NCBI GenBank assembly: GCA_020628305.1
Contig: JAHDFH010000001.1
Coordinates: 65,306-129,305, forward strand
Length of the DNA: 64,000 bases
Source of the DNA: Acidimicrobiales bacterium
GTDB taxonomy: Bacteria > Actinomycetota > Acidimicrobiia > Acidimicrobiales > SZUA-35
Direction of reading: 5' to 3'
Below the pieces are notes generated by a model. It saw only the letters and a list, made by a program, of their open reading frames with translations. It searched no databases and was not told the origin of the DNA. Numbering within the stretch: the first letter of the stretch is position 1; each line of letters opens with the position of its first letter. The translations under genes and the position numbers were made by a program. Below, piece by piece: positions 1 to 63,263 of the stretch.

Positions 1-465
1 TCCAGCGTGAACAGGGAGGCGGATAGTGCGTCCGGTATTTGCAATGCCACGAGTTATCGCCTGACGAATCCACCAAGTGGCGTAAGTTGAGAACTTGAAA
101 CCCTTGCGCCAGTCGAATTTTTCAACAGCGTGCATTAGTCCAAGGTTGCCTTCTTGGATCAGGTCTAGAAGGGGAAGGCCGGAAGCTTGATACTTCTTAG
201 CAATAGAAACAACGAGCCGAAGGTTTGACTGCACGAATGCACGTTCGGCATCACGGCCTTTGCGGACTGCTCGTTTGTGTTCACGCAATTTAGCTTGATC
301 GGTGTCGCTCTCCACTTCTAGCGCAGTGGAGGCTTCTTTGCCCGCTTCGATAGCTTTGGCGAGACGAACTTCGTCGCTCTTTGTTAGCAGAGGGTACTGA
401 CCTATGTCAGTCAGATAAAGTCTGACCAAATCTTCTTCGTCACGTTCAACGCGCTCTGAAGCCAA
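1..465 (-). CDS. RNA polymerase sigma-70 family factor, first 155 codons (gene runs off the left window edge)
   Basis: Absent from the ORF track because it is truncated. Reverse-strand reading from TTG at 465 (AGAGAGGA 6 nt upstream) gives [27 protein letters not shown]...[57 protein letters not shown], which matches sigma-70 regions 1.2 to 2.4. Confidence 0.85.
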
Positions 466-566
466 ATCGGTTCCTCTCTTGCTTGCGGGTAGATATCGAA
501 CGATATCCACTCAGTTGGGGATAAACACACAGAACGACCAAGAATTTGGCTAGTTTTGAACACTAG

Positions 567-1778
567 ATGAAACAGCTTCCGATTCCAGAGCCAGGCTCAT
601 TCAAGGCCGAACTCTACGTGTCTGAACACCTACACGATCTATTTGTTGGTGACATTCGAGCATCGAGCAAGTTGCGTGGTGGGCGCACAGCAGCACTAGC
701 AGCGCTACAAAGCCTTGACGAAGATGCATATGTACAGCATCGACAGGTTGTCTTTCCAGCTGCAAAGCGCCATGACTTTGTTGTGCCAGCATACTTAGGG
801 GCTGGGTTGCTTTCGCTGGAAGAGGTATGGAAAGCCACTAAAGGCTATTCGGATAATGCAAAACGCGTGATCAGAGCTGAGCTTCTTGAAGTCGAGTACG
901 CCCGCCACTGGTATATGACATACAGCAGTCAGTTAGCTGATGGTTTTAGAGCTGAGTTTAAAGAAACTGATTTGGTAAATGATTCTCTTGACAGTTCAAT
1001 GGGCTGTGTTGAACTTACCGTAAGTGAGCTTGTTGAGGATGGTTGGCTGTCGTCGCAACAACTTGAGTGGTTCATAAGTCTGTGGGTGGGTGCGGGCAAA
1101 ACTTTGCAATCAGGTATTGATTTTATGACCCAGCATTTGATTGGCGAAGATTCGGCTGCAAATACCTACATTTGGCAAAAGGTTTCAGGACTGCTGAATC
1201 AAGACCCGTTCAGACTCACGAGATGGGAAGTTGAGCGGCAGGCTCAAGGGCTATGCGCAAGCTGTGAACTTTCAGCAGCGTGTCCGATTGAAACAGAGTT
1301 GAAGCTGCCTGAACTAATATCCAAAGAACCAGGAGCAGCATCTTCTAGGGTCTCTAGCTCTTTAGATACCGTCGAAGTTGACGCTGTACTAATAACCACT
1401 GAACATTTATCTGGAGCGCAAGCAGGAATAGTTAACCCTGATAAGCGCTGCATATTTGTGTTTGACGAAAACCAAGCAGGCAAGCGCAGCGCAAAGCAAG
1501 CTATCTTCTGGCTTGAGTCGCTAGCTGAACTAGCTTTAATTAGCCCGTTGGAGATATACAGAGGAGATCTAGGTTCGGTGTTGGAGCTTTACAGGCGTGA
1601 TGGGATCTCCGTAGCGGCTAATCAAAGGTTGGGGCACCAGGAGCAGAGCTTGCTTTTGGGCCATGTCTCGCAGGTTCATCCTTGGCCGTGGCTTGTGGAG
1701 CCCAACGACGGCGATTGCTCTACCTTTGAAGCGTGGACTCATAGCCACAAAATTGGCGTGGGAAGCGATTTAATTTAA
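567..1778 (+). CDS. cryptochrome/photolyase FAD-binding-domain homolog with an unusual domain order
   Basis: Motifs in canonical order: GGRTAALAALQSL, VPAYLGAGLLSLEEVW, YARHWY, ELVEDGWLSSQQLEWFISLW, LIGEDSAANTYIWQKVSG, DPFRL. There is no N-terminal alpha/beta domain. The C-terminal 150 aa resemble that domain. Confidence 0.5.
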   Translation: MKQLPIPEPGSFKAELYVSEHLHDLFVGDIRASSKLRGGRTAALAALQSLDEDAYVQHRQVVFPAAKRHDFVVPAYLGAGLLSLEEVWKATKGYSDNAKRVIRAELLEVEYARHWYMTYSSQLADGFRAEFKETDLVNDSLDSSMGCVELTVSELVEDGWLSSQQLEWFISLWVGAGKTLQSGIDFMTQHLIGEDSAANTYIWQKVSGLLNQDPFRLTRWEVERQAQGLCASCELSAACPIETELKLPELISKEPGAASSRVSSSLDTVEVDAVLITTEHLSGAQAGIVNPDKRCIFVFDENQAGKRSAKQAIFWLESLAELALISPLEIYRGDLGSVLELYRRDGISVAANQRLGHQEQSLLLGHVSQVHPWPWLVEPNDGDCSTFEAWTHSHKIGVGSDLI

Positions 1779-1852
1779 CCCCAATTTTGGGGTTTGAAAT
1801 TTTATTATTGCTGTACGCTAAAGAATCGGAAACATCTAGAAAAGAGGCCAAG

Positions 1853-3220
1853 GTGTCGTCTCAAAGTCCGATTAAATGTCAACCAGAAGCGTGGAGCGGG
1901 GGAGATACTCTCCTGGCGAAGGCTGTTGCTCGGCCAATGGTCAGATTCATGCGCCAAGAAGCAGCCTCAGGGGTTCTGCTGCTTATAGCTACTGCCGCAG
2001 CCTTGCTGTGGGCAAACTTTGGGGGTGACTCCTACGGAGATTTCTGGCATACCAAATTAAAGCTTTCCCTAGGCGAGACTGAGATCCTCTATGAGACTCT
2101 TGGTCATCTAGTGAACGATGCTTTGATGGTGATCTTCTTCTTCGTAGTTGGTCTAGAAATCAAACACGAACTAGCTGAAGGTGACCTAAAGGATCCTCGA
2201 GTAGCCGCTCTGCCCGCAATCGCAGCGCTTGGTGGAATGCTGGTTCCTGCCGTACTGTATTTCGCCATCAATGCTTCGGGTGAGGGATCTGGCGGTTGGG
2301 GAATCCCAATGGCAACAGACATTGCCTTCGCCTTAGGCGTGCTTGCTCTTATGGGGCCACGAGTGCCACAAAAGCTCAAATTGTTCTTGCTCACATTAGC
2401 CATCGTGGATGATATCGGTGCAATTCTTGTGATCGCTGCTTTCTATACATCTTCAATTGCATTCGGATGGCTCTCACTTGCAATGGCTGGTGTCTTGCTA
2501 ATCATCCTTATGCGTCGTCTGGACGTTTGGTACATACCGGTTTATGTCCTTGTTGGGGTTGTTATTTGGTACGCAACGCTAAAGTCTGGCGTTCACGCAA
2601 CCATTGCAGGTGTGGTTCTGGGTCTGCTCGCACCAGCTAAGCCTTTGGTGGGCAAGCATCCTTACCGGGCAGTAGAGGACATGCTCAGCGGCGATAAAGA
2701 TCACGAAACCATAGACCCTCTTGATGTTCGCGAGGCGAACTGGCATGTTCGGGAGACAGTGGCTGTAACTACACGTTTAACGCATCTGCTGGCGCCTTGG
2801 ACCAGCTTTGTAATTATTCCCCTGTTTGCGCTGTCAAACGCCGGCGTAGTACTTTCATCTGACTCAATTAGCGCGGCTCTTTCATCATCTGTTGCTCTAG
2901 GCATTGTGTTAGGTCTAGTGATTGGCAAGCCGCTGGGAATTTTCTTGGCGACCTGGATTGCGGTAAAGCTTAAGATTGCGACTCTGCCTAAGGAACTAAG
3001 CTTCTCCCATGTTCTTGGTGGAGGAGCAGTCGCAGGTATTGGCTTCACCCTGTCGCTCTTTATTGCCCGTCTGGCATTCGAAGAGGAGGCAGTGCAGATA
3101 CTTGATGAATCAATCATGGGTATCCTCGCAGCTTCAGCAGCAGCGACCTTGCTTGGGTTTATCCTCCTAAGTCGTGCTTCCAAGAAGACTAGACCAGGCG
3201 TTGCAGAGTCAAGCGTCTAG
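1853..3220 (+). CDS. nhaA: Na+/H+ antiporter NhaA
   Basis: Multi-TM protein with FMRQEAASGVLLLIATAAALLWAN and the paired-Asp motif LAIVDDIGAILVIA. Start chosen at GTG 1853 (AAGAGG 5 nt upstream). The ORF is open from 1787 and ATG 1937 is an alternative. Confidence 0.9.
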   Translation: MSSQSPIKCQPEAWSGGDTLLAKAVARPMVRFMRQEAASGVLLLIATAAALLWANFGGDSYGDFWHTKLKLSLGETEILYETLGHLVNDALMVIFFFVVGLEIKHELAEGDLKDPRVAALPAIAALGGMLVPAVLYFAINASGEGSGGWGIPMATDIAFALGVLALMGPRVPQKLKLFLLTLAIVDDIGAILVIAAFYTSSIAFGWLSLAMAGVLLIILMRRLDVWYIPVYVLVGVVIWYATLKSGVHATIAGVVLGLLAPAKPLVGKHPYRAVEDMLSGDKDHETIDPLDVREANWHVRETVAVTTRLTHLLAPWTSFVIIPLFALSNAGVVLSSDSISAALSSSVALGIVLGLVIGKPLGIFLATWIAVKLKIATLPKELSFSHVLGGGAVAGIGFTLSLFIARLAFEEEAVQILDESIMGILAASAAATLLGFILLSRASKKTRPGVAESSV

Positions 3221-3225
3221 AACGA

Positions 3226-5208
3226 CTAGTAGGCGGTAGCTCCAGCGATTTCGCAGATCAAATCGCCCTGCACATCATCGTAGAGCACAGCATCTGAGCT
3301 TCCAGTTTCGCCTGGGCTTAATAGATCGAAGAATGCGGTACCGTTGCCAACCACTGTGTTGTTGCTAACGAACCTGACATCAACTAAAGCGGTCTCGATA
3401 TCTTCAGATAGTGGGTTTGTAAGCTCCACTTGTGCGGTCCAGTATTGGCTTCCAAAGCTCTCTTCGACAGAGCATGCGGTGATAACAGCTGTTGCTTCAA
3501 CAGCCAAGCTATTGGCCTCGAAATCAGCAAAGAAATCTATATCTTCCTCGATCGGAGACAAATCAGGTTCTGCAACTGCAATCTCGTTTGCCACTGCTTC
3601 GAAGTTGTCGCTGGCGACGCTTTCAAGCAGTAGGGATCCGTCAATTTCCTGGGCGATTGCATCAATCCAGTCTTCAAATTGTTGTAGCTCTTCATCATCG
3701 ATTGCCTTGAGGATGTCGACTGCCATGTAGGTTATGGTCGGAACGCCACCGATGTACCATTTGCCATCTCGTTCAACTGCGTGGAATCCCAGTTGCTTCA
3801 TATCGTCGAAAATCTCGTCCAACTTCAGCTGATCAGCTAAGGGGTTTTCCCCAAGTCCAAGATCACATTGAACATCATCTATTGGTTCACCAAAGACTGT
3901 TCCAGTCACGACCAAACAGTCCTCTTCCACCAGCGCTTCAAAGTTGATATCTCCTTCAGAGCTCGTGGCTGTAACCAATGCGTTTTGAGCTTTTAGGTTT
4001 ATGTCTGCTTTGCCATCAAAGAATTCTTGATCCACCTCGAAAGAGAAGTCGATCACAGCGGAGCTATCGTTTGATTCAATCAGCAGGTCAAACGTAGTAG
4101 GTACTCCGTCAATAGCACCTTCACCGGTGGCGCTAAGTAGATTTTCACGAAGTTCCACATTGGCTGTGAAACCTGGTGCAGTTATATCTGCTGTCATCGC
4201 TGTTAGCCAAACCTGGGTGCGCCCGTCTCTGTTCTCTGACGCTGATTCGAATTGAACATCCCAGTCGAATCCGGATTCAGCTTTGAAATTGAGCACTTGA
4301 GATTCGACGTCCAGAGCATCACCTGCAAGCAGACTCCAGTAATTGTAAACAGCTTTGAATTCAGCTGGATCAAGCGTTGCCATCACAGCTTCCATACGTC
4401 CTTGAAGGAGGAGCTCCATCATCTGGTTCATGGCTTCTTCTGGAGAATCAGCTCCAGCCGGTTGAAGACGGCGAGCGTAACTGGGCTCTATGGCGCCTTC
4501 ATCAACGCGTATGTACTCAGCAATGGTATGGCCAAGGCTCAAGAAGTAGCTTCCAGATTCTTTCACCACCATCATTCTTAGTGGTTCATTGTTGATGGTG
4601 CTCTCACCATCTTCGATAGTTTCAACCGAAAGTGGACCGAACGTCACTTTGGATGTAGCGGGTTCAGTTCCGGGGGATTCTTCACCAAGTAGAAGTGCAG
4701 CTTCATTTTCGTCGAAAGTAATTGTTAATTGACCGTCTATAACTGTCACTTCGTACAGCTCGTCAGTTTCTTCGAAATACTGTCTGGTTTCAAATTCAAA
4801 GGGGCGAGTCACTTCGATCTTCAAAGCATCACCAAGAGAGATCTGGTCTCCGTTGAGAGTGTCTGATTCAAACACCCCAAGGCGAACAAGTTCGCCAAAC
4901 AGAGCTGTTTGCGGCTTAACCCATGCTTCGTATTCCGAGGGGGCGATAGTTTGCAAGACTCCAAGTGGATCTTCCTGGCCCAGTGCTTCAAAGAAGGCTT
5001 CTCCAGCTGCTTCTGGGGTGGCAAAGCCATCAGCCGTATCGTCTAGAACAGAAAAGTTCAGGACAACAGCGACCCCGGCGATGAGGGCAAATATGGCTAC
5101 GACCAGAGCACCGCGCCTAAGCAGCTTGCCTGAATCATCATCATTTGGCTGTGAATACGGATCGATTGGCGGGGTATAGGGGTCGGGGGTTGTTTGAAAA
5201 TTGCTCAC
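3226..5208 (-). CDS. hypothetical, very acidic, membrane-anchored exported protein (660 aa)
   Basis: Long intact ORF. GTG start with AGAGGGA upstream. Single N-terminal TM (LLRRGALVVAIFALIAGVAVVLNF) followed by a D/E-rich ectodomain. No family recognised. Confidence 0.6.
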   Translation of the reverse strand: MSNFQTTPDPYTPPIDPYSQPNDDDSGKLLRRGALVVAIFALIAGVAVVLNFSVLDDTADGFATPEAAGEAFFEALGQEDPLGVLQTIAPSEYEAWVKPQTALFGELVRLGVFESDTLNGDQISLGDALKIEVTRPFEFETRQYFEETDELYEVTVIDGQLTITFDENEAALLLGEESPGTEPATSKVTFGPLSVETIEDGESTINNEPLRMMVVKESGSYFLSLGHTIAEYIRVDEGAIEPSYARRLQPAGADSPEEAMNQMMELLLQGRMEAVMATLDPAEFKAVYNYWSLLAGDALDVESQVLNFKAESGFDWDVQFESASENRDGRTQVWLTAMTADITAPGFTANVELRENLLSATGEGAIDGVPTTFDLLIESNDSSAVIDFSFEVDQEFFDGKADINLKAQNALVTATSSEGDINFEALVEEDCLVVTGTVFGEPIDDVQCDLGLGENPLADQLKLDEIFDDMKQLGFHAVERDGKWYIGGVPTITYMAVDILKAIDDEELQQFEDWIDAIAQEIDGSLLLESVASDNFEAVANEIAVAEPDLSPIEEDIDFFADFEANSLAVEATAVITACSVEESFGSQYWTAQVELTNPLSEDIETALVDVRFVSNNTVVGNGTAFFDLLSPGETGSSDAVLYDDVQGDLICEIAGATAY

Positions 5209-15395: not shown

Positions 15396-15437
15396 AAGCG
15401 TCACATTAGGAAACACACAAAGTAGGATTTGACTTAC

Positions 15438-16229
15438 ATGGCCAGTCCACAAGTTCAAAAAAAATCAATAGCGGAGAGAGTGAGCGACAGCGTAGGCTCT
15501 TTGAGTGATAACGTGCAAGGCTCTCAGGCCTGGAACTCTATTTTTCGTCCAGGCTCAGTCTTCCGCAAAGGCTACACAGACAGTCCTAGAAACCGTTCGT
15601 ATGTGATTATGAACTCTGTTTTGTATCACCTGCATCCGGTGAAGGTGAAAAGGCACGCTGTCAAAGTGAGCTACACGCTATGTCTTGGTGGGTTGAGTTT
15701 TTTCCTCTTCATCTTGTTGACTATCACCGGCATCTTCCTGATGTTCTTCTATACCCCGGATGCCGCTAGAGCTTACGACGACACCTACACAATTGTCTCT
15801 GAAACGTCTCTCGGTTTGATGTTGCGAAATATGCACCGCTGGGGAGCCCATTTAATGGTTATTTCAGTTTTCTTGCATATGGCTCGCGTTTTCTATCATG
15901 GAGCTTACAAAGCTCCTCGAGAGTTTAACTGGGTGATTGGTGTCATTCTCCTCACTTTGACTCTCTTGCTATCTTTCACCGGGTATCTGCTTCCGTGGGA
16001 TCAGCTTGCGCTTTGGGCAGTAACTGTGGGCACTAACATGATGGGCTTTACTCCAGTCATTGGTGACCAGGTTAAGTTCGTTCTTCTCGGCGGTTCGGTT
16101 ATTGGCACAGAGACGTTGCTGCGTTGGTATGTGCTGCACGTACTGTTTGTACCGTTCGTGACGGTAATTTTCATGGCAATTCACTTCTGGCGTGTACGTA
16201 AAGATGGCGGCATCTCAGGACCGCTATAG
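15438..16229 (+). CDS. cytochrome b, N-terminal four-helix (b6-like) subunit
   Basis: His pairs in RNMHRWGAHLM and YVLHV...AIHFWRV. Also FTGYLLPWDQLALWA. Ends after helix D, as in PetB. ATG 15438 is preferred over TTG 15429. Confidence 0.9.
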   Translation: MASPQVQKKSIAERVSDSVGSLSDNVQGSQAWNSIFRPGSVFRKGYTDSPRNRSYVIMNSVLYHLHPVKVKRHAVKVSYTLCLGGLSFFLFILLTITGIFLMFFYTPDAARAYDDTYTIVSETSLGLMLRNMHRWGAHLMVISVFLHMARVFYHGAYKAPREFNWVIGVILLTLTLLLSFTGYLLPWDQLALWAVTVGTNMMGFTPVIGDQVKFVLLGGSVIGTETLLRWYVLHVLFVPFVTVIFMAIHFWRVRKDGGISGPL

Positions 16230-16236
16230 GAGAACA

Positions 16237-16980
16237 ATGGCCGACATTCCAGATCATCTCAAACAGCGTGCCAAAGCCGCTAAAGAAAAAGCAGAAGCGG
16301 CCAAGTCTGATTCTGGCGGTTCTGCCTCTGCGTCTGGTATCCCAGAACATTTACTGAAGCGCTCAAAAGCAGCGAAGTCAAAAGGTGATTCTCCATCTTC
16401 TGATTCTGTAGTTGCCTCAGCTGGCACCGCTCCGGCTGCAGGTGGAGGCGACACCGGTGCTGCCGCAATCCAAACCGGACCCGGTGGCCATACCCAAAGA
16501 CTTCTTACAGTTGTCAAAGCAGGGTCAATTCAAGACATCAAGTCCAAACCACTAGATAAAGTCCACACCTGGCCGCATCTCATAGTGGTGGAATTTGGGG
16601 CAATGCTCGCAGTTACTGCGTTTCTGATCGTGTTCTCAATCTTCGTCAATGCTCCACTCCAACGTCTTGCTGATGTGAACGCTACGCCTAACCCTTCGAA
16701 AGCGCCGTGGTACTTTCTAGGACTTCAAGAGTTGCTCACGCTATTCCACCCTATGGTCGCTGGGGTAACCATTCCGGGAGTTGGACTTTTCGCTTTAATG
16801 CTTGCCCCATATATTGATAAAACAGTTAGCAACAAGCCTGAAGATCGTAAGTTCGCAATTTCCGTATTTACTTTCTTCATGATGTTCTGGGCAATTCTTT
16901 CAATAATCGGCTCTTTCTTTAGAGGCCCCGGTTTCAACTTTGTGTTCCCCTGGGAAGAAGGGATCTTCTTCGAACTCTAA
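16237..16980 (+). CDS. cytochrome b C-terminal part / subunit-IV-like protein with a long N-terminal tail
   Basis: ATG 16237 has AGGAG upstream. KAPWYFLGLQELL (variant of the PEWYF motif) and 3 TM helices. The N-terminal 110 aa are low-complexity and carry two IP(D/E)HL..R.KAAK motifs. Confidence 0.85.
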   Translation: MADIPDHLKQRAKAAKEKAEAAKSDSGGSASASGIPEHLLKRSKAAKSKGDSPSSDSVVASAGTAPAAGGGDTGAAAIQTGPGGHTQRLLTVVKAGSIQDIKSKPLDKVHTWPHLIVVEFGAMLAVTAFLIVFSIFVNAPLQRLADVNATPNPSKAPWYFLGLQELLTLFHPMVAGVTIPGVGLFALMLAPYIDKTVSNKPEDRKFAISVFTFFMMFWAILSIIGSFFRGPGFNFVFPWEEGIFFEL

Positions 16981-16993
16981 GAGGGTGTGAATT

Positions 16994-17842
16994 ATGGTAG
17001 TTTTTTATGCAGTAGGCGCAATAGTTCTTCTGGCTGTGGTTGCAGCTGTGGTTTTGTTTAGAAGGCAAGATCGCGAATTGGCCACCGGTTCTTTGACTGG
17101 AGTAGAGGCTGATCGAAAGAGAATAATTAGAGACAAAGGCGATCTCGAAGGTAAAGACTTTGAAACGCAGGCTCTCGAAAAACGCTCTCAAGAGCTAGCG
17201 CCAGCAGAGCCAGATGGGCCAGTTATCATCCCACCAATGGATCCCGACCAACTTGGTGAGGCAAGACGAGCCTTCCTCAACCGCAGCATCATTGGGGCTG
17301 CAAGCTTAGGGCTAGCGATGCTCGGTGGGGCTATTTTGAAAACCCTTTGGCCGAGTGCAAGTGGTGGATTCGGCGACAAAATTGTCGTTGGTAACGTTGA
17401 CTCGATCAAAGAATCAATTCGCGACAGTGGAGGCTTCTTCTACTTTCCGCTTGGCCGGATGTGGATTACCGAGTATCCGACTTCAGCTGTTGTTAAGGCA
17501 GAAACAAGTTATGGTTTCTACCCTCAGGTAGAGCAGGGGCTAAAGGCTGGAGTGGTTGCTCTATTCCAAACTTGCCCTCACCTGGGCTGCCGAGTTCCTG
17601 AATGTGAAACATCTCAGTGGTTCGAGTGTCCATGTCACGGTTCGCAATACAACAGAGTTGGAGAGAAAAAGGGTGGTCCTGCTCCTCGAGGCATGGATCG
17701 CTTTCCCATGGAAGTTTCCTCTGATGGAGTGCTTACGGTTGATACTGGAACAATCATTCAGGGTCCACCTATTGGCGTAAACACAACTGGTCAAGAAGCG
17801 GAAGGACCAAATTGTCTTTCTGATGGTGGAGGTGAGCACTGA
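16994..17842 (+). CDS. Rieske [2Fe-2S] subunit
   Basis: CPHLGCRV and CPCHGSQY boxes. N-terminal TM helix. Confidence 0.9.
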   Translation: MVVFYAVGAIVLLAVVAAVVLFRRQDRELATGSLTGVEADRKRIIRDKGDLEGKDFETQALEKRSQELAPAEPDGPVIIPPMDPDQLGEARRAFLNRSIIGAASLGLAMLGGAILKTLWPSASGGFGDKIVVGNVDSIKESIRDSGGFFYFPLGRMWITEYPTSAVVKAETSYGFYPQVEQGLKAGVVALFQTCPHLGCRVPECETSQWFECPCHGSQYNRVGEKKGGPAPRGMDRFPMEVSSDGVLTVDTGTIIQGPPIGVNTTGQEAEGPNCLSDGGGEH

Positions 17843-19509
17843 TGGAAGCGCTTTTACTCCAAACAAACTACAGATCAATCGGCATTGCCTTTGCCCTGAT
17901 AACTTTCATTGGCTTTGTTATCATCTTCTTCGCCAACAGTCGTAAAGCTCGTAAAGAAATCGGTAACGAGATTGAGCTTGCTGCCAACCGCAAAGAATAT
18001 TACGACGACGAGGATATGGAAGGCCTGCGCCTTGATCGTTCTTTGTCCTTCGCTTTAGTGTCGTTGTTGTTCATTGCTCTGTCATTTGGTTTCTACATGA
18101 TTGCCGAGCCAGGCCGCCAAGAAGGTGCGGTTCAAAACAAGATCGAGACTTTCCAAAGGCGCGGTGAGGACACCTACGTTAATGGAGCACAATGCGTCAA
18201 CTGTCACGCAGCTGATGGCTCTGGTGGTGGGGCAGCGTATGTGCTCCAAGACGCTGATGGTCAATTTATAGCAAACGCTAACTGGATGGCTCCTGCGTTG
18301 AATAACGTGTTGCTTCGCTACTCAGAAGAAGAGATCACTTACATCCTTAACTTTGGTCGGAATGGCTCGCCGATGGCCGCATGGGGCACGCCTGGTGGAG
18401 GGCCGTTAACCTCTCAAGCTGTACAGAACGTTATTGAGTATTTGAAAACCCTTCAAGTCCAAAGCATCGAACCAACCGACATTGCAGCTGCCGGCAATGA
18501 GAACCCCGATAACAGCGAAAACGATTTGGACGACGAAGAATCTCAAAAGGCTCAGGAAGAAGCCGACCGTCTAACAGCTTCGGTTAGGGCTGAGGTTGAT
18601 AGGTCGCTCGCCGATGGTGAGTTTGCGACGGTCGGGGAGGCCGTGTTTAACCTGGGACTGTACTCAGGGTTTGGAGCGGGATCCTATTCTTGTGCCCGCT
18701 GTCATACATCGGGCTGGTCGCTCGGAATTGATGCGTCCCCGAATGTTCTAGATGAAGGTGTGGCCGCCTGCGGTGGTGGGACGACCGGTATTGGGTTCAA
18801 CTTGTGTGGCGGTTCGATCGAAACTCGCTTCCCCAATGACACTTGGAAGATGCCTGACGGCTCTTGGATGCCGCCCGAAGGCTTAACTAATGACGATGGC
18901 GAATCGATAGTTCTTACAATGGATGGTACTGAAATTGTTCTTGATGAACGAGGCCGCCCAGTCGATGCAGATGGTAACCCGTATCTTGTCTTAACTGATG
19001 GTTTGATTGATGCCCGCTCTGCGGCCCCTGCGGTGGATGAACCAGCTGAAGAGGATGAAATCATCGATGATGAGACTACCGCTGCGGTTGCTGCAGAAGT
19101 CGAAACAGGATCAGCTTTGCTCGGATTGGCTGGGGATTTAGCACAGTGTGACTTTGTTTCAGAGCTGTATACGCCCGCTGACGGAGCAACATATCCAGTG
19201 GATCCAGATTCTGAACCTGTGGTCGGTGAAGACGGTGAGCTCTCTTCACCTGAAGCTTTGAATCCTGATGATTTTTCAGAGCCTGTTTACACTTTGGATT
19301 CTGGACGTCTGGCAAGCGGTTGTGAAATTATCGAGATGCCGGAAAGAACTAGCGACGCCCACTATGACTTCATCTACGATGGGGCTAACGCCGGGCAAGG
19401 CTACGGAAATGGCGGCATGTCGAGCGCTGGTATGATGCCTGGTTTTGGCAAAATGCTACCTCCTGAGTACATCCAAGCAGTAGTCGACTATGAGCGAGGT
19501 CTTGAGTAA
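17842..19509 (+). CDS. membrane-anchored diheme c-type cytochrome (555 aa)
   Basis: Heme motifs CVNCH and CARCH. N-terminal TM helices. Long acidic insertions. The start overlaps the Rieske stop (TGATG). Confidence 0.85.
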   Translation: MEALLLQTNYRSIGIAFALITFIGFVIIFFANSRKARKEIGNEIELAANRKEYYDDEDMEGLRLDRSLSFALVSLLFIALSFGFYMIAEPGRQEGAVQNKIETFQRRGEDTYVNGAQCVNCHAADGSGGGAAYVLQDADGQFIANANWMAPALNNVLLRYSEEEITYILNFGRNGSPMAAWGTPGGGPLTSQAVQNVIEYLKTLQVQSIEPTDIAAAGNENPDNSENDLDDEESQKAQEEADRLTASVRAEVDRSLADGEFATVGEAVFNLGLYSGFGAGSYSCARCHTSGWSLGIDASPNVLDEGVAACGGGTTGIGFNLCGGSIETRFPNDTWKMPDGSWMPPEGLTNDDGESIVLTMDGTEIVLDERGRPVDADGNPYLVLTDGLIDARSAAPAVDEPAEEDEIIDDETTAAVAAEVETGSALLGLAGDLAQCDFVSELYTPADGATYPVDPDSEPVVGEDGELSSPEALNPDDFSEPVYTLDSGRLASGCEIIEMPERTSDAHYDFIYDGANAGQGYGNGGMSSAGMMPGFGKMLPPEYIQAVVDYERGLE

Positions 19510-22450: not shown

Positions 22451-22990
22451 ATGAGCGATTCAATTCCAGAGGTTGAAGATGTCGAAATTGAGATCCATGG
22501 AAGCAATTCTGAGGTGCTATTTGGCTGCCCCGTAAGCTACTCGATGGGTCAGACTGTTATCCACCCAAGTAGGAGTCACTGGCTTCAGGTCGCTACTAAC
22601 TTGCTTAACGACGGCTATAACATGTGTGTCGATTTGACTGCCGTTGACTACTTATCCAATGACACTAGGGAACTGCCAGAAGGCATAGTTCTTGAACGGT
22701 TCGAGGTTGTAGCTTCGTTTGTATCCCATGAAAGAGCTGAGCGCCTTAGGGCTCGAGTGCAAATTTCTGGATCTGATCCGACTATCGATTCCCTCTACGA
22801 GATTTATCCAGGAACAGACTTTCTAGAACGAGAAGTTTATGACATGTTTGGCATCACTTTCGAAGGCCATCCTGATTTGTCCCGAATCTTGATGCCAGAA
22901 GAGTGGCAGGGGCATCCACTGCGCAAAGACTTTGATGTTGGGGCTATCCCAGTGCAGTTTAAGTATCCACAGGGTGAGAAATATGATTGA
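22451..22990 (+). CDS. nuoC: NADH-quinone oxidoreductase subunit C
   Basis: EREVYDMFGITFEGHPDLSRILMPEEWQGHPLRKDF. Confidence 0.9.
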   Translation: MSDSIPEVEDVEIEIHGSNSEVLFGCPVSYSMGQTVIHPSRSHWLQVATNLLNDGYNMCVDLTAVDYLSNDTRELPEGIVLERFEVVASFVSHERAERLRARVQISGSDPTIDSLYEIYPGTDFLEREVYDMFGITFEGHPDLSRILMPEEWQGHPLRKDFDVGAIPVQFKYPQGEKYD

Positions 22991-24272
22991 TTCACCTGAG
23001 AAGCAGGTAGTTACTTCCCAGCTTGGGAAGCTTCCGAAGCTAGATTCTGTTCTTCGTATGTCTGAGGTGCAGGCGGCTGAAGCTGGCTCTTCTGCTTATC
23101 AAAACGATGACGAGACCATGATTATCAACATGGGGCCATCACACCCCTCAACGCACGGTGTGCTTCGTTTAATGCTCGAGCTTAAGGGTGAAATGGTGCT
23201 TCGGTCCAAGCCAATTATGGGGTACCTCCATACTGGCATGGAAAAAACCGGCGAAGAGCTTACCTACTTGCAGGGTGCAACAAATGTCACCCGCATGGAC
23301 TACGCCTCGCCTCTCTTCAATGAGCTAGCGTTTTCTCTGGCCGTTGAAAAACTTGTCGGGATGGAAATCCCAGAGCGAGCTACCTGGATTCGCATGCTGA
23401 TGTGTGAGCTCAACCGCATCTCCTCTCATTTGTTGTTTATGGCAACGAATGGCATGGATTTGGGTGCTGTGTCAATGATGATCTACGGCTGGCGAGAACG
23501 AGAGCAAGTTCTTCGATTCTTCCAAAAAGTTACAGGCCTGAGAATGAATCACAACTACATCCGCCCAGGGGGAGTGGCAGCCGATTTGCCACCGGGTTGG
23601 GAAGAAGATGTCAACTCCTTGATGGAGATGCTTCCTCCAAGGCTCGAAGAGTATGACACGCTAATGACGAACCAGCCGATTTGGCGGGAACGCCTTCAAG
23701 GTGTTGGGTTCTTAAGCAAAGAAGAGGCACTGGCTTTGTCGATTACTGGGCCACTCTTACGCTCTGCTGGGGTTGCCTGGGATTTGCGCAGCACAATGCC
23801 TTATCTTGCATATGACCAAGTTGATTTCGATGTTTTGGTTGGTAGTTACGGAGATTGCTTTGACCGGTACTCCATTCGCCTCAACGAAATTCGTGAATCG
23901 ATGAAAATCGTAAAGCAGATCGTCGAGAAAATGCCGGAGGGTGACTACCGTGTTCAGGATAAAAAGATCACGCCGCCACCTCGAGCTCGGATTGATGAGT
24001 CGATGGAAGCTTTGATCCACCATTTTAAGATCTTTACAGAGGGCTACAAAGTTCCGGCAGGCGAAGTATATGTGGCAGTAGAGTCTCCACGAGGCGAGCT
24101 GGGCTGCTACATAGTTTCAGATGGCTCATCAAAGCCTTACCGCATGCATATTCGTGGCCCTAGCTTTGTCAACCTTCAAGTGCTTCCACATATGTTGGCC
24201 AACTCTCAGATTGCTGATGCAGTAGCCATTCTTTCAAGTGTTGATCCAATTCTTGGCGAGGTAGATAGATGA
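22983..24272 (+). CDS. nuoD: NADH-quinone oxidoreductase subunit D
   Basis: NMGPSHPSTHGVLRL and C-terminal SVDPILGEVDR. ATG 22983 overlaps the nuoC stop. The track ORF's earlier start lies inside nuoC. Confidence 0.95.
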   Translation: MIDSPEKQVVTSQLGKLPKLDSVLRMSEVQAAEAGSSAYQNDDETMIINMGPSHPSTHGVLRLMLELKGEMVLRSKPIMGYLHTGMEKTGEELTYLQGATNVTRMDYASPLFNELAFSLAVEKLVGMEIPERATWIRMLMCELNRISSHLLFMATNGMDLGAVSMMIYGWREREQVLRFFQKVTGLRMNHNYIRPGGVAADLPPGWEEDVNSLMEMLPPRLEEYDTLMTNQPIWRERLQGVGFLSKEEALALSITGPLLRSAGVAWDLRSTMPYLAYDQVDFDVLVGSYGDCFDRYSIRLNEIRESMKIVKQIVEKMPEGDYRVQDKKITPPPRARIDESMEALIHHFKIFTEGYKVPAGEVYVAVESPRGELGCYIVSDGSSKPYRMHIRGPSFVNLQVLPHMLANSQIADAVAILSSVDPILGEVDR

Positions 24273-24907
24273 GTCGTTTAACTTCTGCTGCCGTGATTGA
24301 AGCTGAGGAGATTATTGCCCGCTATCCGAGGAAGAAATCGGCCCTCATTCCTTTGCTGCATTTGGCTCAGGCTCAGGATGGTTACGTCGCTGACGACGCA
24401 ATGGAACACATTGCGGAGTTGCTGGATATCACACCAGTCGAAGTTCTTGGGACGTGCTCATTCTATGAAATGTTTAAGAGAGAGCCTGTTGGTAAGTATC
24501 TAGTAAACATCTGCACCAATATTTCGTGCCAGCTGATGGGTGGCGAAGAGCTCCTCCACCATGCAGAAAAGACGCTAGGGATCAAGTCTGGTGGAACAAC
24601 TGAAGACGGCATGTTTACCATTGAAGATGTTGAATGTATTGCAGCTTGTACCGAAGCTCCCTGTATGCAGGTGAACTATCGCTATGCCGGACGTTTGGAC
24701 GAGGTCCGTTTCGACAAGATAGTTTCTGAGATAAGAGAAGGCAAGCTTGCCATACCAGCCCACGGCAATCTTGGTGATGTGAAACAGCACATCCCACAAG
24801 AACGCGAGTCTGGCATCAAGCCTCCAGAACAAACTGAAGCTCCTGCCTGGTTTGTTCGCCGCATGTCAGAATCTGAGAGTGAGGTAACTATCAATGCCAA
24901 CAAATAA
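24269..24907 (+). CDS. nuoE: NADH-quinone oxidoreductase subunit E
   Basis: 2Fe-2S Cys pattern: GTCSFYEMF, CTNISCQLMG, CIAACTEAPCMQVN. Confidence 0.9.
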   Translation: MSRLTSAAVIEAEEIIARYPRKKSALIPLLHLAQAQDGYVADDAMEHIAELLDITPVEVLGTCSFYEMFKREPVGKYLVNICTNISCQLMGGEELLHHAEKTLGIKSGGTTEDGMFTIEDVECIAACTEAPCMQVNYRYAGRLDEVRFDKIVSEIREGKLAIPAHGNLGDVKQHIPQERESGIKPPEQTEAPAWFVRRMSESESEVTINANK

Positions 24908-26285
24908 CTACCTCCCTCACCTTGATGGCTATGTGGACAACGAAGGTCCAAAGATTGTCACCTCAAGATTTAACGATCCAAACAACTACAAGATTTCTAA
25001 CTACAAAGCCTCCGGCGGTTACCAAGCTCTTGAATCAGCACTCGACATATCACCGGATGCTGTAGCCGCTGAGATCAAAGATGCGATTCTCCTCGGTCGT
25101 GGGGGTGCGGGCTTTCCTGCTGGCCTTAAGTGGGGCTTCCTGCCCGATGTCTACCCGCGTTACCTCGTGGTCAATGGTGACGAATCTGAACCTGGAACCT
25201 ACAAAGATAGACTCTTGATGGAGCATGATCCTCACCAACTTATTGAGGGTTGCCTGATTACTTGCTATGCGCTGGGTATTGAGACTTGCTTTCTTTATGT
25301 GAGGGGCGAGATGGCTCTTGCTCAAGAAAGGCTTGCCCAAGCCCTAAACGATGCCTACGCTCAAGGCTATATTGGCAAAAACATCTATGGAACTGACGTT
25401 GGAATCGACATCGTTCTGCACTGGGGAGCTGGAGCTTACATAGTTGGCGAAGAAACAGCACTGATTGAATCACTCGAAGGCAATCGTGGGATGCCTCGCC
25501 TTAAGCCCCCTTTCTTTCCAGCGGTGAAGGGCGTCTACATGAAGCCAACCATTGTTAACAATGTTGAGACGCTTTCAAACGTGCCTTGGATTGTTACTAA
25601 CGGTGCTGATAAGTACAAGGAGTTTGGTTCGGAGGCGTCTCCTGGTTCGCGCATGTTGGCCATCTCAGGTCATGTGAATAGGCCTGGCGTGTACGAAGTG
25701 GAACAGGGCGAAGTGACATTTAGGGAGCTTTTCTACGGTGATAACTACTGTCAGGGCATCCGAAACGATGGAGATGTCAAGATGTTCATCCCCGGCGGAG
25801 GCTCAGCCCCATGGTTCTTTGAAGAACAACTCGATCTGCCTTTAGAAGCTAAAGCTGTTGGAGCGGCAGGTTCTATGCTTGGGTCGGGAGCCATTGTGGT
25901 GATGGATCAAACAACTGACGCGGTTAAGGCCTGTTTGCGAGTAGTTCGTTTCTTTGCAAGAGAATCGTGTGGTAAGTGCACTCCCTGTCGTGAAGGCACT
26001 TCTTGGGAAGAGAAGATTTTGCAGCGCATTCTAGATGGTGCTGGCCGCCCAGAAGATCTCGATTTGCTACTTGATGTTGGTTCACAAATTTCTCCAGGAG
26101 ATTACCCGAAAGCGGCTTGGGAAGCTGAAGGTCTTGAAGCGGTTCCGTTCCCACCCAAGCAAACCACCATCTGTCCGTTGGGGCCATCTTCTGTAGCTCC
26201 AATCACTTCAGCCTTACGCCGCTTCCGGCCAGAGTTTGAAGCTAAGATTGCCGCCGGACGCACAACAGTTGGGGCGAGTTCATGA
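24894..26285 (+). CDS. nuoF: NADH-quinone oxidoreductase subunit F
   Basis: GRGGAGFPAGLKW, NGDESEPGTYKDR (FMN/NADH site) and ESCGKCTPCREG (N3 cluster). Confidence 0.95.
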   Translation: MPTNNYLPHLDGYVDNEGPKIVTSRFNDPNNYKISNYKASGGYQALESALDISPDAVAAEIKDAILLGRGGAGFPAGLKWGFLPDVYPRYLVVNGDESEPGTYKDRLLMEHDPHQLIEGCLITCYALGIETCFLYVRGEMALAQERLAQALNDAYAQGYIGKNIYGTDVGIDIVLHWGAGAYIVGEETALIESLEGNRGMPRLKPPFFPAVKGVYMKPTIVNNVETLSNVPWIVTNGADKYKEFGSEASPGSRMLAISGHVNRPGVYEVEQGEVTFRELFYGDNYCQGIRNDGDVKMFIPGGGSAPWFFEEQLDLPLEAKAVGAAGSMLGSGAIVVMDQTTDAVKACLRVVRFFARESCGKCTPCREGTSWEEKILQRILDGAGRPEDLDLLLDVGSQISPGDYPKAAWEAEGLEAVPFPPKQTTICPLGPSSVAPITSALRRFRPEFEAKIAAGRTTVGASS

Positions 26286-31180: not shown

Positions 31181-31485
31181 TGGAACTGACCGAAACATGG
31201 TTTCTGCTGCTGAGCGCAGCGCTTTTCTCAATTGGACTGGCAGGCATCCTGATCCGCAAGAATCCTTTGATTATGTTCATGTGTGCAGAACTTATGCTTA
31301 ACGCAGTCAATATCGCATTCATAGCATTCTCGGAGCGGCTGCAAGATATAGCTGGGCAGTCTGCGATTCTTTTTATTCTGGTCGTTGCCGCCGCCGAAGT
31401 AGTAATCGGTCTGTCGCTAGTAGTTTTGTTGCAGCGACGCAACAGAGACCTGGTAGTCGATGATCTATCGGAGCTGAGGGGGTAA
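31180..31485 (+). CDS. nuoK: NADH-quinone oxidoreductase subunit K
   Basis: 101 aa with 3 TM helices. MCAELMLNAVN...AAAEVVIGLSLVV. Confidence 0.9.
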   Translation: MELTETWFLLLSAALFSIGLAGILIRKNPLIMFMCAELMLNAVNIAFIAFSERLQDIAGQSAILFILVVAAAEVVIGLSLVVLLQRRNRDLVVDDLSELRG

Positions 31486-31488
31486 GAG

Positions 31489-61719: not shown

Positions 61720-63159
61720 CTAAACAACTACTTCTGGGTAGAGCGGGTAGTTGGCTAGTAGCTCAGCGCAGCGTTTGCGGCAGCTTTCCACTACATCAGC
61801 ATCGATGTTGTACTTGGCTTTTGAGTCTTGACCGTTCTCATCAACTTGTGGACTAGTAGCTTTCAAAACAGTGGCAATAATGTCGGCAACTTCTTCCATG
61901 TCAGCTGGAGTCATACCAAGTGTTGTTAGAGCTGGAGTGCCGAGTCTCACACCAGAGGTGTACCAAGCGCCGTTCACATCGTTTGGTACAGAGTTGCGGT
62001 TACAAATAACGCCCGCATCTTGTAATGCTGCTTCCGCATGACGGCCAGTAAGGCCAAACGAAGTTACGTCAACAACGCAAAGGTGGTTGTCGGTTCCGTC
62101 TGAAACTAAACGAGCGCCTCTAGCTTTGAGACCTTCAGCCAAAGCGTATGAGTTGTCTGCAATGCGTTGAGCATATTCTTGAAACTCTGGTTTACGAGCC
62201 TCTGCAAATGCAACTGCTTTGGCCGCCATGATGTTGGCGAGCGGCCCGCCAAGAACCATAGGGCAGCCCTTGTCAATGAACTTGGCTAGTTCAGCGTCGT
62301 TAGAAAGAACAATACCACCACGAGGTCCACGCAAAGACTTATGAGTAGTCGATGTCACAATATGTGCATGCGCTACCGGATCATAATCGCCAGTGAGGAC
62401 CTTGCCTGCAACAAGACCGGAGAAGTGAGCCATGTCAACCATGAGCACTGCACCAACCTCGTCAGCAATGGCACGCATCTTAGCAACGTTAACTCTGCGA
62501 GGGTGAGCTGAATATCCAGCTACAAGAATAAGTGGCTTAAACTCTCGACAAAGGTTAGCTACCTCTTCATAATCGATCTGCTCAGTTTCCGGATCTACAC
62601 CGTAGCTCCGCTGGTCAAACATTTTTCCTGAAATGTTGTGACGGAACCCGTGCGTAAGGTGTCCACCGGCATCGAGGGACATACCTACCAGGCGTTGATT
62701 GCCGAAACGCTTTCTTAGCTCAGCCCAATCAGCATCAGACATCTCGTTGACGTTCTTCAAGTTAAGATCGGCCAGCATTGGCGCTTCAACTTTTTGTGCC
62801 AGAATCGCCCAAAAAGCTACCAGGTTGGCATCAATTCCCGAATGAGGCTGAACATAGGCATAGTCTGCACCGAAAAGCGCTTTTGCATGATCTGCAGCAG
62901 CAGTCTCTACCTTGTCGATGTACTCACAGCCCGCATAGAAACGGCGCCCAGGGTTGCCTTCTGCATACTTGTCACTCAGCCAGTTACCCATTGCAAGAAG
63001 TGTCGCTGGCGAGGCATAGTTTTCAGAAGCAATCAGCTTGAGCTGGCTGCGCTGGTTGTCTAACTCACCACGGATGTGATCGGCAATGTTTGGTTCTACA
63101 GCTGCAACAACCTCAAGGGCGGATTGAAAAGCTTGTGATTCGATACTGAGCTCGGGCAT
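61720..63159 (-). CDS. glyA: serine hydroxymethyltransferase
   Basis: [41 protein letters not shown] and [14 protein letters not shown] (PLP Lys). ATG 63159 has AGAGGA upstream. The ORF is open to 63240. Confidence 0.9.
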
Positions 63160-63263
63160 GGTGTGTTCCTCTGTCATGGGTTGAAATTTCTTCGCCCAGG
63201 CGCTCGGCATATGTCTAGCTGTTCCCTGGTGGTGAACCACCTTAACGCCAGTAGCAGCTATGT

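What the first reader, a model, noticed from the sequence alone, without database searches (positions are those of the whole stretch)
567..1778. Photolyase/cryptochrome homolog that appears circularly permuted and retains an FeS-BCP-like four-Cys set
What the sequence shows:
- Residues of about 35-215 carry the FAD-domain landmarks in canonical order: GGRTAALAALQSL; VPAYLGAGLLSLEEVW; YARHWY; ELVEDGWLSSQQLEWFISLW; LIGEDSAANTYIWQKVSG; DPFRL.
- The protein begins only about 35 aa before these landmarks, so the usual N-terminal alpha/beta (antenna) domain cannot be present upstream.
- Residues of about 270-370 read VLITTEHLS...CIFVFDENQAGKRSAKQAIFWLESLAEL...LEIYRGDLGSVLELYRRDGISVAANQ. This resembles that missing domain, whose usual pattern is a beta1 strand, then vFi.D...s.rr..F..esL..L...L.v..Gd...l..l....i..v.
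- Cys147 plus C230-x2-C233-x5-C239 (nt 1254-1283) recalls the C-x(~88)-C-x2-C-x(~12)-C ligands of the [4Fe-4S] cluster in FeS-BCP/CryPro photolyases.

Inference: this is a domain-order-swapped member of the family. I am not aware of a described permuted photolyase. The gene is divergent from a sigma-70 gene.
Basis: partly seen in the sequence, partly recalled or inferred. Interest (0 to 1): 0.55.

Follow-up and report, generated by a model that had tools for sequence, protein, structure and literature searches.

The report
Degenerate reversed-order iron-sulfur photolyase homolog
This gene encodes a member of an already described class of "short" photolyases (NewPHL/SPL), which have the two domains in reversed order and an iron-sulfur cluster, but this copy has lost the residues that hold the flavin and the damaged DNA, so it is probably no longer a DNA-repair enzyme.

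Summary
ORF 567..1778 (+) encodes 403 aa: a photolyase-type helical domain at the N-terminus, four cysteines (C147, C230, C233, C239), and a roughly 130-aa alpha/beta domain at the C-terminus. No antenna domain lies upstream.

This is the NewPHL class (Emmerich 2020, "reversed domain order", C-terminal Z-domain), also called SPL (Xu 2021). The actinobacterial member RfSPL carries FAD and an Fe-S cluster on the same C-x83-C-x2-C-x5-C motif and repairs CPDs.

New evidence supports a permuted antenna domain:
- An AlphaFold model (pLDDT 89.8) gives a five-strand beta-alpha fold.
- Foldseek hits are weak but include cryptochrome and photolyase N-domains.
- hhalign against canonical N-domains gives P = 2e-4, collinear; the reversed control gives P = 0.83.

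What is unusual is this particular copy:
- It keeps only 4 of 12 published FAD, CPD and Trp-chain residues.
- It alone among 148 family representatives lacks the invariant Arg and Asp that form the FAD salt bridge in the RfSPL model (L166, G193).
- It matches 59% of highly conserved columns, against a family median of 97%.
- It is 37% identical to its syntenic ortholog, while the neighbouring genes are 68-86% identical.
- All four cysteines and the reading frame are intact.

Most likely it is a flavin-pocket-degenerate, Fe-S-retaining derivative. Interest is moderate to low.

The parts
567..1778 (+). Complete ORF (403 aa plus stop): a divergent NewPHL/SPL-class protein
   Evidence: The ORF is listed. 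Forty-eight homologs cover 76-100% of it (44 of them at least 93%). The AF2 model has pLDDT 89.8 and pTM 0.91.
669..1211 (+). [quoted passage not shown]
   Evidence: Homology is shown. Degeneracy is shown.
1005..1007 (+). Cys147: the first putative [4Fe-4S] ligand, in the helix before DGWL
   Evidence: It is invariant in 148/148 representatives. It aligns with the residue numbered Cys155 in RfSPL.
1062..1064 (+). Leu166 in place of the family-invariant Arg (E. coli R344, RfSPL R174; FAD salt bridge)
   Evidence: Arg is present in 147/147 other representatives. The salt bridge is described.
1143..1145 (+). Gly193 in place of the family-invariant Asp (E. coli D372, RfSPL D202; FAD salt bridge)
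   Evidence: Asp is present in 147/147 other representatives.
1254..1283 (+). C230-x2-C233-x5-C239: the three further putative [4Fe-4S] ligands
   Evidence: They are invariant in 148/148 representatives. They have the same spacing as RfSPL Cys239/242/248. pLDDT in this region is above 90.
1377..1751 (+). Residues ~271-395: C-terminal alpha/beta 'Z-domain' (five beta strands alternating with helices), probably a permuted counterpart of the canonical N-terminal antenna domain
   Evidence: Secondary structure comes from the AF2 models. hhalign gives P=2e-4, collinear, to canonical N-domains. Foldseek results are and HMM cross-hits against decoys.
466..566 (.). A 101-bp intergenic region between the divergent sigma-70 gene and the ORF. 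It leaves no room for an upstream antenna domain.
   Evidence: The N-termini of the closest homologs coincide with the window protein's start.
1..465 (-). 5' part of a divergently transcribed sigma-70-family gene (context only). It is 86% identical to the sigma gene at the same position next to ortholog P0003.
1787..3220 (+). NhaA Na+/H+ antiporter gene immediately downstream (context only). Its likely true start is the GTG at 1853. Relatives have an RsbW-like gene between the SPL gene and nhaA, which is absent here.
   Evidence: Pfam PF06965 matches at E=5e-141. Synteny is shown.

Best explanation
The ORF encodes a protein descended from the NewPHL/SPL class of the photolyase/cryptochrome superfamily, within the actinobacterial Fe-S-bearing branch that includes Rhodococcus fascians RfSPL.

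Its architecture is the reversed one already published for that class:
- a Cys4 site (C147, C230, C233, C239) that in RfSPL holds an iron-sulfur cluster;
- a C-terminal alpha/beta Z-domain that, by my profile and model comparisons, is most likely a permuted counterpart of the canonical N-terminal antenna domain, packing against the helical domain.

In ordinary members, light-excited FADH- splits cyclobutane pyrimidine dimers. NewPHLs were shown to do this only in single-stranded DNA.

This particular copy has evolved fast and has replaced most residues that bind FAD and the dimer, including both partners of the invariant Arg-Asp salt bridge over the flavin. It has kept an intact reading frame, the fold-defining residues and all four cysteines.

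I therefore infer that it is still made and still carries the Fe-S cluster, but no longer works as a flavin-dependent photolyase. Its present role is unknown; an Fe-S-dependent DNA-binding or redox role is the most plausible.

Shown: homology, architecture, Cys conservation, residue losses and rate acceleration. Inferred: loss of FAD binding and repair, retention of the cluster, and permutation as the evolutionary origin.
For: Class membership by descent:
- 48 full-length homologs; 47 of the 49 aligned sequences (all but the window protein and one homolog) hit PF03441.
- The profile matches class I photolyase at E=1.9e-22.
- The family includes Rhodococcoides, Pseudonocardia and Ilumatobacter proteins.
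- P0037 carries all 12 residue numbers published for RfSPL.

Published description of the class: reversed order and Z-domain; four Cys, FAD, Fe-S and CPD repair in RfSPL.

Fold:
- AF2 gives pLDDT 89.8 and pTM 0.91, with beta-alpha-beta topology in residues 273-393.
- Foldseek of the full model finds class I photolyases (E=3e-5) and PhrB over 275-282 columns.

- hhalign P=2e-4, 82 collinear columns, against P=0.83 reversed.
- HMM hits of 9.0, 6.0, 5.3 and 5.0 bits, all collinear in residues 2-100 of canonical photolyases, against decoy maxima of 0.2 and 2.7.
- Foldseek probability 0.95 to CRY1 and class II photolyase N-domains.

Degeneracy:
- 4 of 12 key sites are kept, whereas 34 of 48 relatives keep 12 of 12.
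- The Arg344 and Asp372 equivalents are invariant in 147/147 others but are L166 and G193 here; S238 is replaced by P and G381 by I.
- 63 of 106 highly conserved columns are kept, against a median of 97%.
- The SPL proteins are 37% identical to the syntenic ortholog, while NhaA is 68% and sigma 86%.

Still under selection:
- Random-substitution simulations gave no stop-free ORF in 300 runs at 60% identity.
- Conserved columns are retained at 55-59% against 28-32% for variable ones.
- The four Cys are 148/148.
Against: - No biochemical data exist for this protein. FAD binding can tolerate substitutions, and N378, W382, A377, Y222 and W338 equivalents are kept.
- The window protein is a singleton: its nearest relative is 38% identical. 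Neither dN/dS nor conservation of the degenerate state can be tested.
- A recent loss of function with the frame still open cannot be excluded.
- Structural support for Z-domain/antenna homology is weak. Foldseek E is 0.03 or higher and TM is 0.43-0.48, with universal stress proteins and other Rossmann-like folds scoring similarly. hhalign probability is only 47%.
- Emmerich et al. reported that the predicted secondary structure of a proteobacterial Z-domain does not match a typical Rossmann motif.
Confidence: 0.7

Rival explanations
1. It is an ordinary, active SPL/NewPHL-type CPD photolyase like RfSPL, DsNewPHL or MmNewPHL. It would use FAD, with the Fe-S cluster as an accessory cofactor.
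For: The architecture and Cys4 motif are the same as in the characterised RfSPL. E274, N378, W382, A377, Y222, R226 and W338 equivalents are kept. The AF2 model is confident.
Against: It has lost R344 and D372, which are invariant in 147/147 relatives. It has also lost S235, S238, G381, W277, N341, M345, W384 and W359. Pfam FAD_binding_7 does not detect it, although it detects 47 of the 49 aligned sequences. Divergence is strongly accelerated.
Confidence: 0.1
2. It is a functionless relic. The gene lost its role, possibly together with the neighbouring RsbW-like gene, and is decaying, with the frame still open by chance.
For: Losses are spread over both domains: 19 of 51 conserved columns in the helical domain and 20 of 43 in the Z-domain. 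It is a singleton lineage. The RsbW-like gene found downstream in the three closest loci is missing here.
Against: The ORF is an intact 403 codons. Under unconstrained substitution only 6 of 300 simulations remain stop-free at 80% identity, and none at 60% or below. All 18 family-invariant columns, including the four Cys, are kept. Conserved columns are retained about twice as well as variable ones.
Confidence: 0.15
3. The C-terminal domain is not a permuted antenna domain. It would be an unrelated or independently acquired alpha/beta 'Z-domain' that merely seals the flavin site. In that case SPL/NewPHL would be an ancestral minimal photolyase, as both describing papers prefer, and the resemblance would be convergent.
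For: Emmerich et al. favour the ancestral scenario. They note NewPHLs with only about 53 residues after the catalytic domain, and a secondary-structure order unlike a typical Rossmann fold. Foldseek shows no significant hit, and generic Rossmann-like or HUP folds score like photolyase N-domains. Single-protein Pfam PF00875 hits are marginal, at E=0.08 in 2 of 49.
Against: The profile-profile match is collinear from beta1 to beta3 at P=2e-4, against P=0.83 for the reversed control. HMM hits lie above decoys and always in the N-terminal 100 residues, in register. The same register was found independently against 1tez and CraCRY. Emmerich's own Fig. 5 legend notes striking similarity to the antenna-binding domain.
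Confidence: 0.3
4. It is a truncated or rearranged FeS-BCP/CryPro (bacterial 6-4 photolyase) rather than an SPL.
For: It has a four-Cys arrangement like PhrB. Foldseek aligns the most columns (275-282) to PhrB.
Against: Sequence profiles hit class I/III and DASH photolyases (E as low as 1e-22) but not PhrB or CryB at E of 10 or below. There is no PF04244 hit. The last Cys spacing is x5, not x12. There is no N-terminal lumazine-binding domain.
Confidence: 0.03

Closest known systems
SPL subgroup 'Ac', type member RfSPL of Rhodococcus fascians (Xu et al. 2021, PMC8476157)
   Same: It is about 400 aa with the photolyase helical domain at the N-terminus and no antenna domain upstream. It has a C-terminal extension of about 150 aa. 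The four Cys have nearly identical spacing (RfSPL 155/239/242/248; here 147/230/233/239). It is actinobacterial. Family member P0037 shares all published RfSPL residue numbers and aligns end to end with the window protein.
   Different: RfSPL keeps the FAD and CPD residues and was shown to contain FAD and Fe-S and to repair CPDs. The window protein keeps 4 of 12 of those residues and lacks the Arg-Asp pair. Identity to the P0037 type is about 32%.
NewPHL (DsNewPHL, MmNewPHL; Emmerich et al. 2020, PMC7736829)
   Same: It has the reversed domain order: an N-terminal catalytic domain most similar to class I CPD photolyase, and a folded C-terminal Z-domain of about 150 aa that packs on the flavin side. 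Xu et al. state that it is the same class as SPL.
   Different: The characterised NewPHLs are proteobacterial, have no Cys4/Fe-S site, and keep all catalytic residues. I did not compare their Z-domains directly with this one.
FeS-BCP / CryPro bacterial (6-4) photolyases (PhrB 4DJA, CryB)
   Same: A [4Fe-4S] cluster is ligated by one Cys in the helix preceding the HHxxR/NxxR motif and three Cys after the catalytic core. Foldseek aligns 275-282 columns.
   Different: They have canonical domain order with an N-terminal lumazine-binding domain. Their Cys spacing is x87-x2-x12. They repair 6-4 lesions. No sequence-profile match was found here.
Class I CPD photolyases (1TEZ/1OWL, 1DNP)
   Same: They give the best sequence and structure matches for residues 35-216. 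Their N-terminal alpha/beta domain is the best sequence-profile match for the window's C-terminal domain.
   Different: They have the opposite domain order, no Fe-S cluster, an antenna chromophore, an interdomain linker with a phosphate-binding loop, and an intact flavin pocket.

Membership tests
NewPHL / SPL class | [quoted passage not shown] | tested here: met
   NCBIfam E=2.6e-4 for the protein alone. Family profile against 1tez E=1.9e-22. hhalign E=1.5e-21. Foldseek E=3.2e-5.
NewPHL / SPL class | No N-terminal alpha/beta antenna domain | tested here: met
   The start coincides with the closest homologs. The intergenic region before the divergent sigma gene is 101 bp. tblastn with E. coli Phr finds no antenna-domain coding sequence elsewhere in the window.
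NewPHL / SPL class | Folded C-terminal Z-domain/extension (~150 aa) after the catalytic domain | tested here: met
   Residues ~271-395 are conserved across the family. They are predicted as a five-strand alpha/beta domain, with full-model pLDDT about 90 and pTM 0.91.
NewPHL / SPL class | Strict conservation of FAD-binding and CPD-binding residues (E. coli R344, D372, A377, N378, G381; E274, W277, N341, M345, W384; W359, W382) | tested here: not met
   The window keeps 4 of 12, whereas 34 of 48 relatives keep 12 of 12. R344 and D372 are invariant in 147/147 other representatives and are L166 and G193 here.
SPL subgroups Ac/C (Fe-S bearing) | Four conserved cysteines arranged as in RfSPL (C-x83-C-x2-C-x5-C) | tested here: met
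   C147-x82-C230-x2-C233-x5-C239. They are invariant in 148/148 representatives.
SPL subgroups Ac/C (Fe-S bearing) | Bound FAD, bound iron-sulfur cluster and light-driven CPD repair | not testable with these tools
   This needs purified protein. It has been shown only for RfSPL.
Circularly permuted two-domain photolyase (evolutionary claim) | C-terminal domain homologous to the canonical N-terminal antenna (PF00875-type) domain | tested here: inconclusive
   Supportive but not decisive. hhalign P=2e-4, probability 47%, collinear, against P=0.83 reversed. HMM hits exceed decoys. Foldseek E is 0.04-0.09 with probability 0.95 to CRY1 and class II photolyase, among other Rossmann-like folds. PF00875 reaches E=0.08 in 2 of 49 members.
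Circularly permuted two-domain photolyase (evolutionary claim) | C-terminal domain occupies the same position against the helical domain as the antenna domain | not testable with these tools
FeS-BCP / CryPro | Canonical order with an N-terminal lumazine-binding domain; PF04244-type sequence; C-x87-C-x2-C-x12-C | tested here: not met
   There is no N-terminal domain, no PF04244 hit and no PhrB/CryB hit with the sequence profile. The last spacing is x5.

The most novel reading that the evidence does not exclude
This may be a natural flavin-free, [4Fe-4S]-only descendant of a photolyase. The photolyase helical fold plus permuted antenna domain would be kept solely as an iron-sulfur module, for example for DNA binding or redox sensing. 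That would resemble the flavin-less primase PriL C-terminal domain, which has been compared with FeS-BCPs (from my own knowledge, not tested here). The strong motif-level similarity between the actinobacterial Z-domain and the canonical antenna domain would also mean that SPL/NewPHL proteins derive from two-domain photolyases by permutation. They would then not be the ancestors of the superfamily, contrary to the preferred scenario of both describing papers.
Probability: 0.3. Interest if true: 0.55.

Novelty: new variant of a known kind. Interest (0 to 1): 0.33.

Why it matters
Two smaller points have value.

First, profile and model comparisons on the actinobacterial branch support the idea that the C-terminal Z-domain is a relocated antenna domain. 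[quoted passage not shown]

Second, this copy is the only one of 148 family representatives that has dismantled the flavin pocket while keeping the cluster ligands. If it is expressed and stable, it would be a natural experiment separating the role of the Fe-S cluster, whose function in photolyases is still unknown, from flavin photochemistry.

Tried and rejected
- Pfam on the window protein alone gave no hit. phmmer of the single protein against PDB sequences gave only noise. Family profiles were needed.
- The look-up of encoding contigs had no record for the window protein. The genome-contig scan found only relatives of 32-33% identity.
- I considered a functional link to the divergent sigma-70 gene and to an RsbW-like anti-sigma kinase gene. 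The sigma gene is adjacent only in the closest syntenic contig. The RsbW-like gene follows the SPL gene in only 3 of 8 relatives' loci and is absent from the window. I treated this as lineage synteny, not evidence of function.
- I considered a WhiB-like relation because of the identical C-x2-C-x5-C spacing. The only support is a non-significant PDB hit to WhiB3 (E=1.6), so I rejected it as evidence.
- I looked for a frameshifted upstream domain or a separate antenna-domain gene and found none. The only weak tblastn hit lies in a D-Ala-D-Ala ligase ORF.
- The E. coli-type promoter/terminator scan of 350-2000 was uninformative.
- My first residue mapping with mafft --keeplength mis-numbered E. 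coli residues. I redid it without that option.
Full report
1. WHAT IS THERE

ORF 567..1778 (+) starts with ATG and encodes 403 aa. The Cys147 codon is nt 1005-1007, and C230-x2-C233-x5-C239 is nt 1254-1283.

Upstream, a sigma-70-family gene runs off the window on the minus strand. Its TTG start is at 465, preceded by a GAGAGGA Shine-Dalgarno-like sequence. That leaves a 101-bp intergenic region (466-566). Downstream lies an NhaA antiporter gene (Pfam E=5e-141).

2. HOMOLOGY OF THE N-TERMINAL HALF

- On its own, the protein is missed by Pfam and by phmmer against PDB sequences. It matches NCBIfam crypto_DASH at E=2.6e-4 over residues 20-227, which aligns to profile positions 192-415 of 431.
- A search of 5.8 billion proteins found 48 homologs of about 400-480 aa. 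They cover 76-100% of the query; 44 of them cover at least 93%. Forty-seven of the 49 aligned sequences hit PF03441 FAD_binding_7; the exceptions are the window protein and one homolog.
- The family profile matches class I CPD photolyases at E=1.9e-22, profile 39-216 = 1tez residues 207-397.
- hhalign against 45 canonical class I photolyases gives E=1.5e-21.
- An AlphaFold2 model built on the family alignment is confident (pLDDT 89.8, pTM 0.91). Foldseek finds class I photolyases (1owm, E=3.2e-5, 212 columns). It aligns the most columns (275-282) to the Fe-S photolyase PhrB.
- No NewPHL/SPL structure appears among the PDB matches.

3. THE CLASS IS ALREADY DESCRIBED

Emmerich et al. 2020 (PMC7736829) defined NewPHL:
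- They describe "a reversed domain order" and a Z-domain of about 150 aa.
- Their Fig. [quoted passage not shown] Xu et al. 2021 (PMC8476157) described the same class as SPL:
- About one third of members (subgroups C and Ac) have four conserved Cys.
- In RfSPL (406 aa) these are Cys155/239/242/248. They model onto PhrB Cys350/438/441/454.
- Its C-terminal extension could not be modelled.

Family member P0037 carries all 12 residue identities and numbers quoted for RfSPL. The window's four Cys align with them. A profile search brings in named actinobacterial proteins from Rhodococcoides, Pseudonocardia, Ilumatobacter, Phycicoccus and Frigoribacterium.

The window protein therefore belongs by descent to the Fe-S-bearing actinobacterial SPL branch.

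4. IS THE C-TERMINAL DOMAIN A RELOCATED ANTENNA DOMAIN?

Fold. AF2 predicts strands at residues 273-276, 294-300, 328-333, 347-350 and 369-371, alternating with helices. An isolated-domain model agrees (pLDDT 76.8).

Structure search. Foldseek of the isolated domain gives no significant hit. The best E is 0.027.
- The list is dominated by Rossmann-like/HUP folds such as universal stress proteins and PPAT.
- The highest-probability hits (0.95) are mouse CRY1 and Methanosarcina class II photolyase, with TMq 0.43-0.48.

Sequence level:
- HMMER placed profile columns 303-344 on residues 25-66 of 1tez.
- The C-half profile matched residues 31-87 of Chlamydomonas aCRY at E=0.15.

Larger test. I assembled canonical N-domains from an exhaustive search with an E. 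coli Phr fragment.
- hhalign of the 148-sequence SPL C-half against 119 canonical N-domains gives P=2e-4 (probability 47%), with 82 collinear columns from beta1 to beta3.
- The same alignment reversed gives P=0.83.
- The aligned motifs are aVWLTAESLGd-DPALaA with LvWFRxDLRvxDNxAL, and P-VFVFDepLL..LrLS.KRLvFl.EtLAeLA with the beta2-alpha2 segment.
- The SPL C-half HMM scores 9.0, 6.0, 5.3 and 5.0 bits on canonical full-length photolyases, always collinear within residues 2-100. Reversed sequences reach at most 0.2 bits and five-fold shuffled sequences 2.7 bits.
- Control domain pairings score P=0.21 and 0.49.

I read this as suggestive of true homology, and hence of permutation, but not proof.

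5. WHAT IS UNUSUAL: THIS COPY IS DEGENERATE

I mapped E. coli photolyase numbering onto the family. Against the residues Xu et al. list as FAD-binding, substrate-binding and Trp chain, the window protein shows these changes:

| Kept | Replaced |
|---|---|
| A377, N378, E274, W382 | R344→L166, D372→G193, G381→I202, W277→E108, N341→S163, M345→E167, W384→K205, W359→L180 |

- It also has S235→F71 and S238→P74 in the phosphate-binding TSxLS motif.
- It keeps 4 of 12 listed sites, whereas 34 of 48 relatives keep all 12.
- In 148 family representatives the Arg344 and Asp372 equivalents are invariant in the 147 others and absent only here. These are the salt bridge over the flavin, R174/D202 in the RfSPL model. 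All four Cys are 148/148.
- The window protein matches only 63 of 106 columns that are at least 90% conserved in the others. The family median is 97%, and the next-lowest full-length member is 84%.
- Losses fall in both the helical domain (19 of 51) and the Z-domain (20 of 43), but hardly in the Cys region (2 of 10).

6. RATE AND SELECTION

The contig carrying P0003 is syntenic: sigma-70 divergent, SPL, then NhaA.

| Comparison | Identity |
|---|---|
| Sigma, window vs P0003 contig | 86% |
| NhaA, window vs P0003 contig | 68% |
| SPL, window vs P0003 | 37% |
| SPL, P0003 vs outgroup P0007 | 46% |
| NhaA, P0003 contig vs P0007 contig | 61% |

The window lineage is therefore accelerated.

The gene is nevertheless not a long-standing neutral relic. 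In random-substitution simulations of the ortholog's gene, only 6 of 300 runs were stop-free at 80% protein identity, and 0 of 300 at 60% or below. Conserved columns are retained about twice as well as variable ones, at 55-59% against 28-32%.

7. MOST LIKELY MECHANISM

Ordinary members use FADH- photochemistry to split CPDs. NewPHLs were shown to do so only in single-stranded DNA. The Z-domain seals the flavin site and, in the Ac/C branches, a [4Fe-4S] cluster of unknown role is present.

For this copy I infer a protein that still folds and still binds the cluster but has lost flavin binding and CPD repair. Its present role is unknown; Fe-S-dependent DNA binding or redox sensing is plausible. 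Loss of FAD binding, retention of the cluster and any new role are inferences.

8. RIVALS

- An active photolyase: disfavoured by the residue losses.
- A recently dead relic: cannot be excluded, and is disfavoured by the frame and the Cys retention.
- A Z-domain unrelated to the antenna domain: still open, at about 0.3.
- A rearranged FeS-BCP: rejected, because there is no profile match, the spacing differs and the protein is closer to class I.

9. CONTEXT AND VERDICT

- Homologs come from Actinomycetota, Acidimicrobiales and Nanopelagicales MAGs and from cultured actinobacteria. The window's organism was not identified.
- The finding is real and its reading essentially correct, but it describes a published class. 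The added value is supporting evidence for the permutation scenario and the discovery that this copy has a dismantled flavin pocket.
- Novelty: a new variant of a known kind. Interest is about 0.33.

Noticed in passing
L002:6347-6772, L003:7242-7679, L005:1852-2313 (relatives' loci); absent from window 1779-1852: In the three loci closest to the window, the SPL gene is followed directly by a small HATPase_c_2 (RsbW-like anti-sigma-factor kinase) gene, and then by nhaA in two of them. The window has lost this gene, and tblastn finds no copy anywhere in the 64 kb. Five more distant loci lack the pairing.
   Followed up: partly
Family members P0049, P0040, P0031, P0014, P0034, P0046, P0032, P0039, P0042, P0045 (alignment A1): About 10 of 48 relatives have replaced CPD-binding residues (E274→A, N341→D/G, M345→R, W384 lost) but keep the FAD Arg-Asp pair and the four Cys. 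They may form a cryptochrome-like, non-repairing subgroup of Fe-S SPLs. The two describing papers that I read do not mention such a subgroup.
   Followed up: partly
window 1-465 (-) vs L002:3921-4853: The divergent sigma-70-family gene is 86% identical to the one at the same position beside ortholog P0003, while the adjacent SPL proteins are only 37% identical. This is a striking local rate contrast.
   Followed up: yes
window 63187-63265 (-): A ZMP/ZTP riboswitch (Rfam RF01750, 53.1 bits, above the gathering score) lies at the 5' end of ORF 61720..63240 (-). The listed ORF start overlaps the match by 54 nt. I did not annotate that ORF.
   Followed up: no
window 15429-19509 and 22932-35051 (+): Two respiratory gene clusters are present. 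The first has cytochrome b, Rieske and cytochrome c genes. The second is a run of complex I (nuo) subunit genes (49 kDa, 51 kDa, NuoG-like, NuoH, NuoL/M-type). I did not annotate the ORFs on either side of it.
   Followed up: partly
window 3226-5208 (-): A 660-aa acidic ORF has an N-terminal hydrophobic segment and no Pfam match at E of 0.001 or below.
   Followed up: no
window 1254-1283 (+): The C-x2-C-x5-C spacing of the last three Cys is the same as in actinobacterial WhiB-like Fe-S proteins. The family profile gives only a non-significant PDB hit to WhiB3 (E=1.6). This is probably coincidental.
   Followed up: partly
window 1-64000: ARAGORN detected no tRNA or tmRNA gene anywhere in the 64 kb.
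   Followed up: yes
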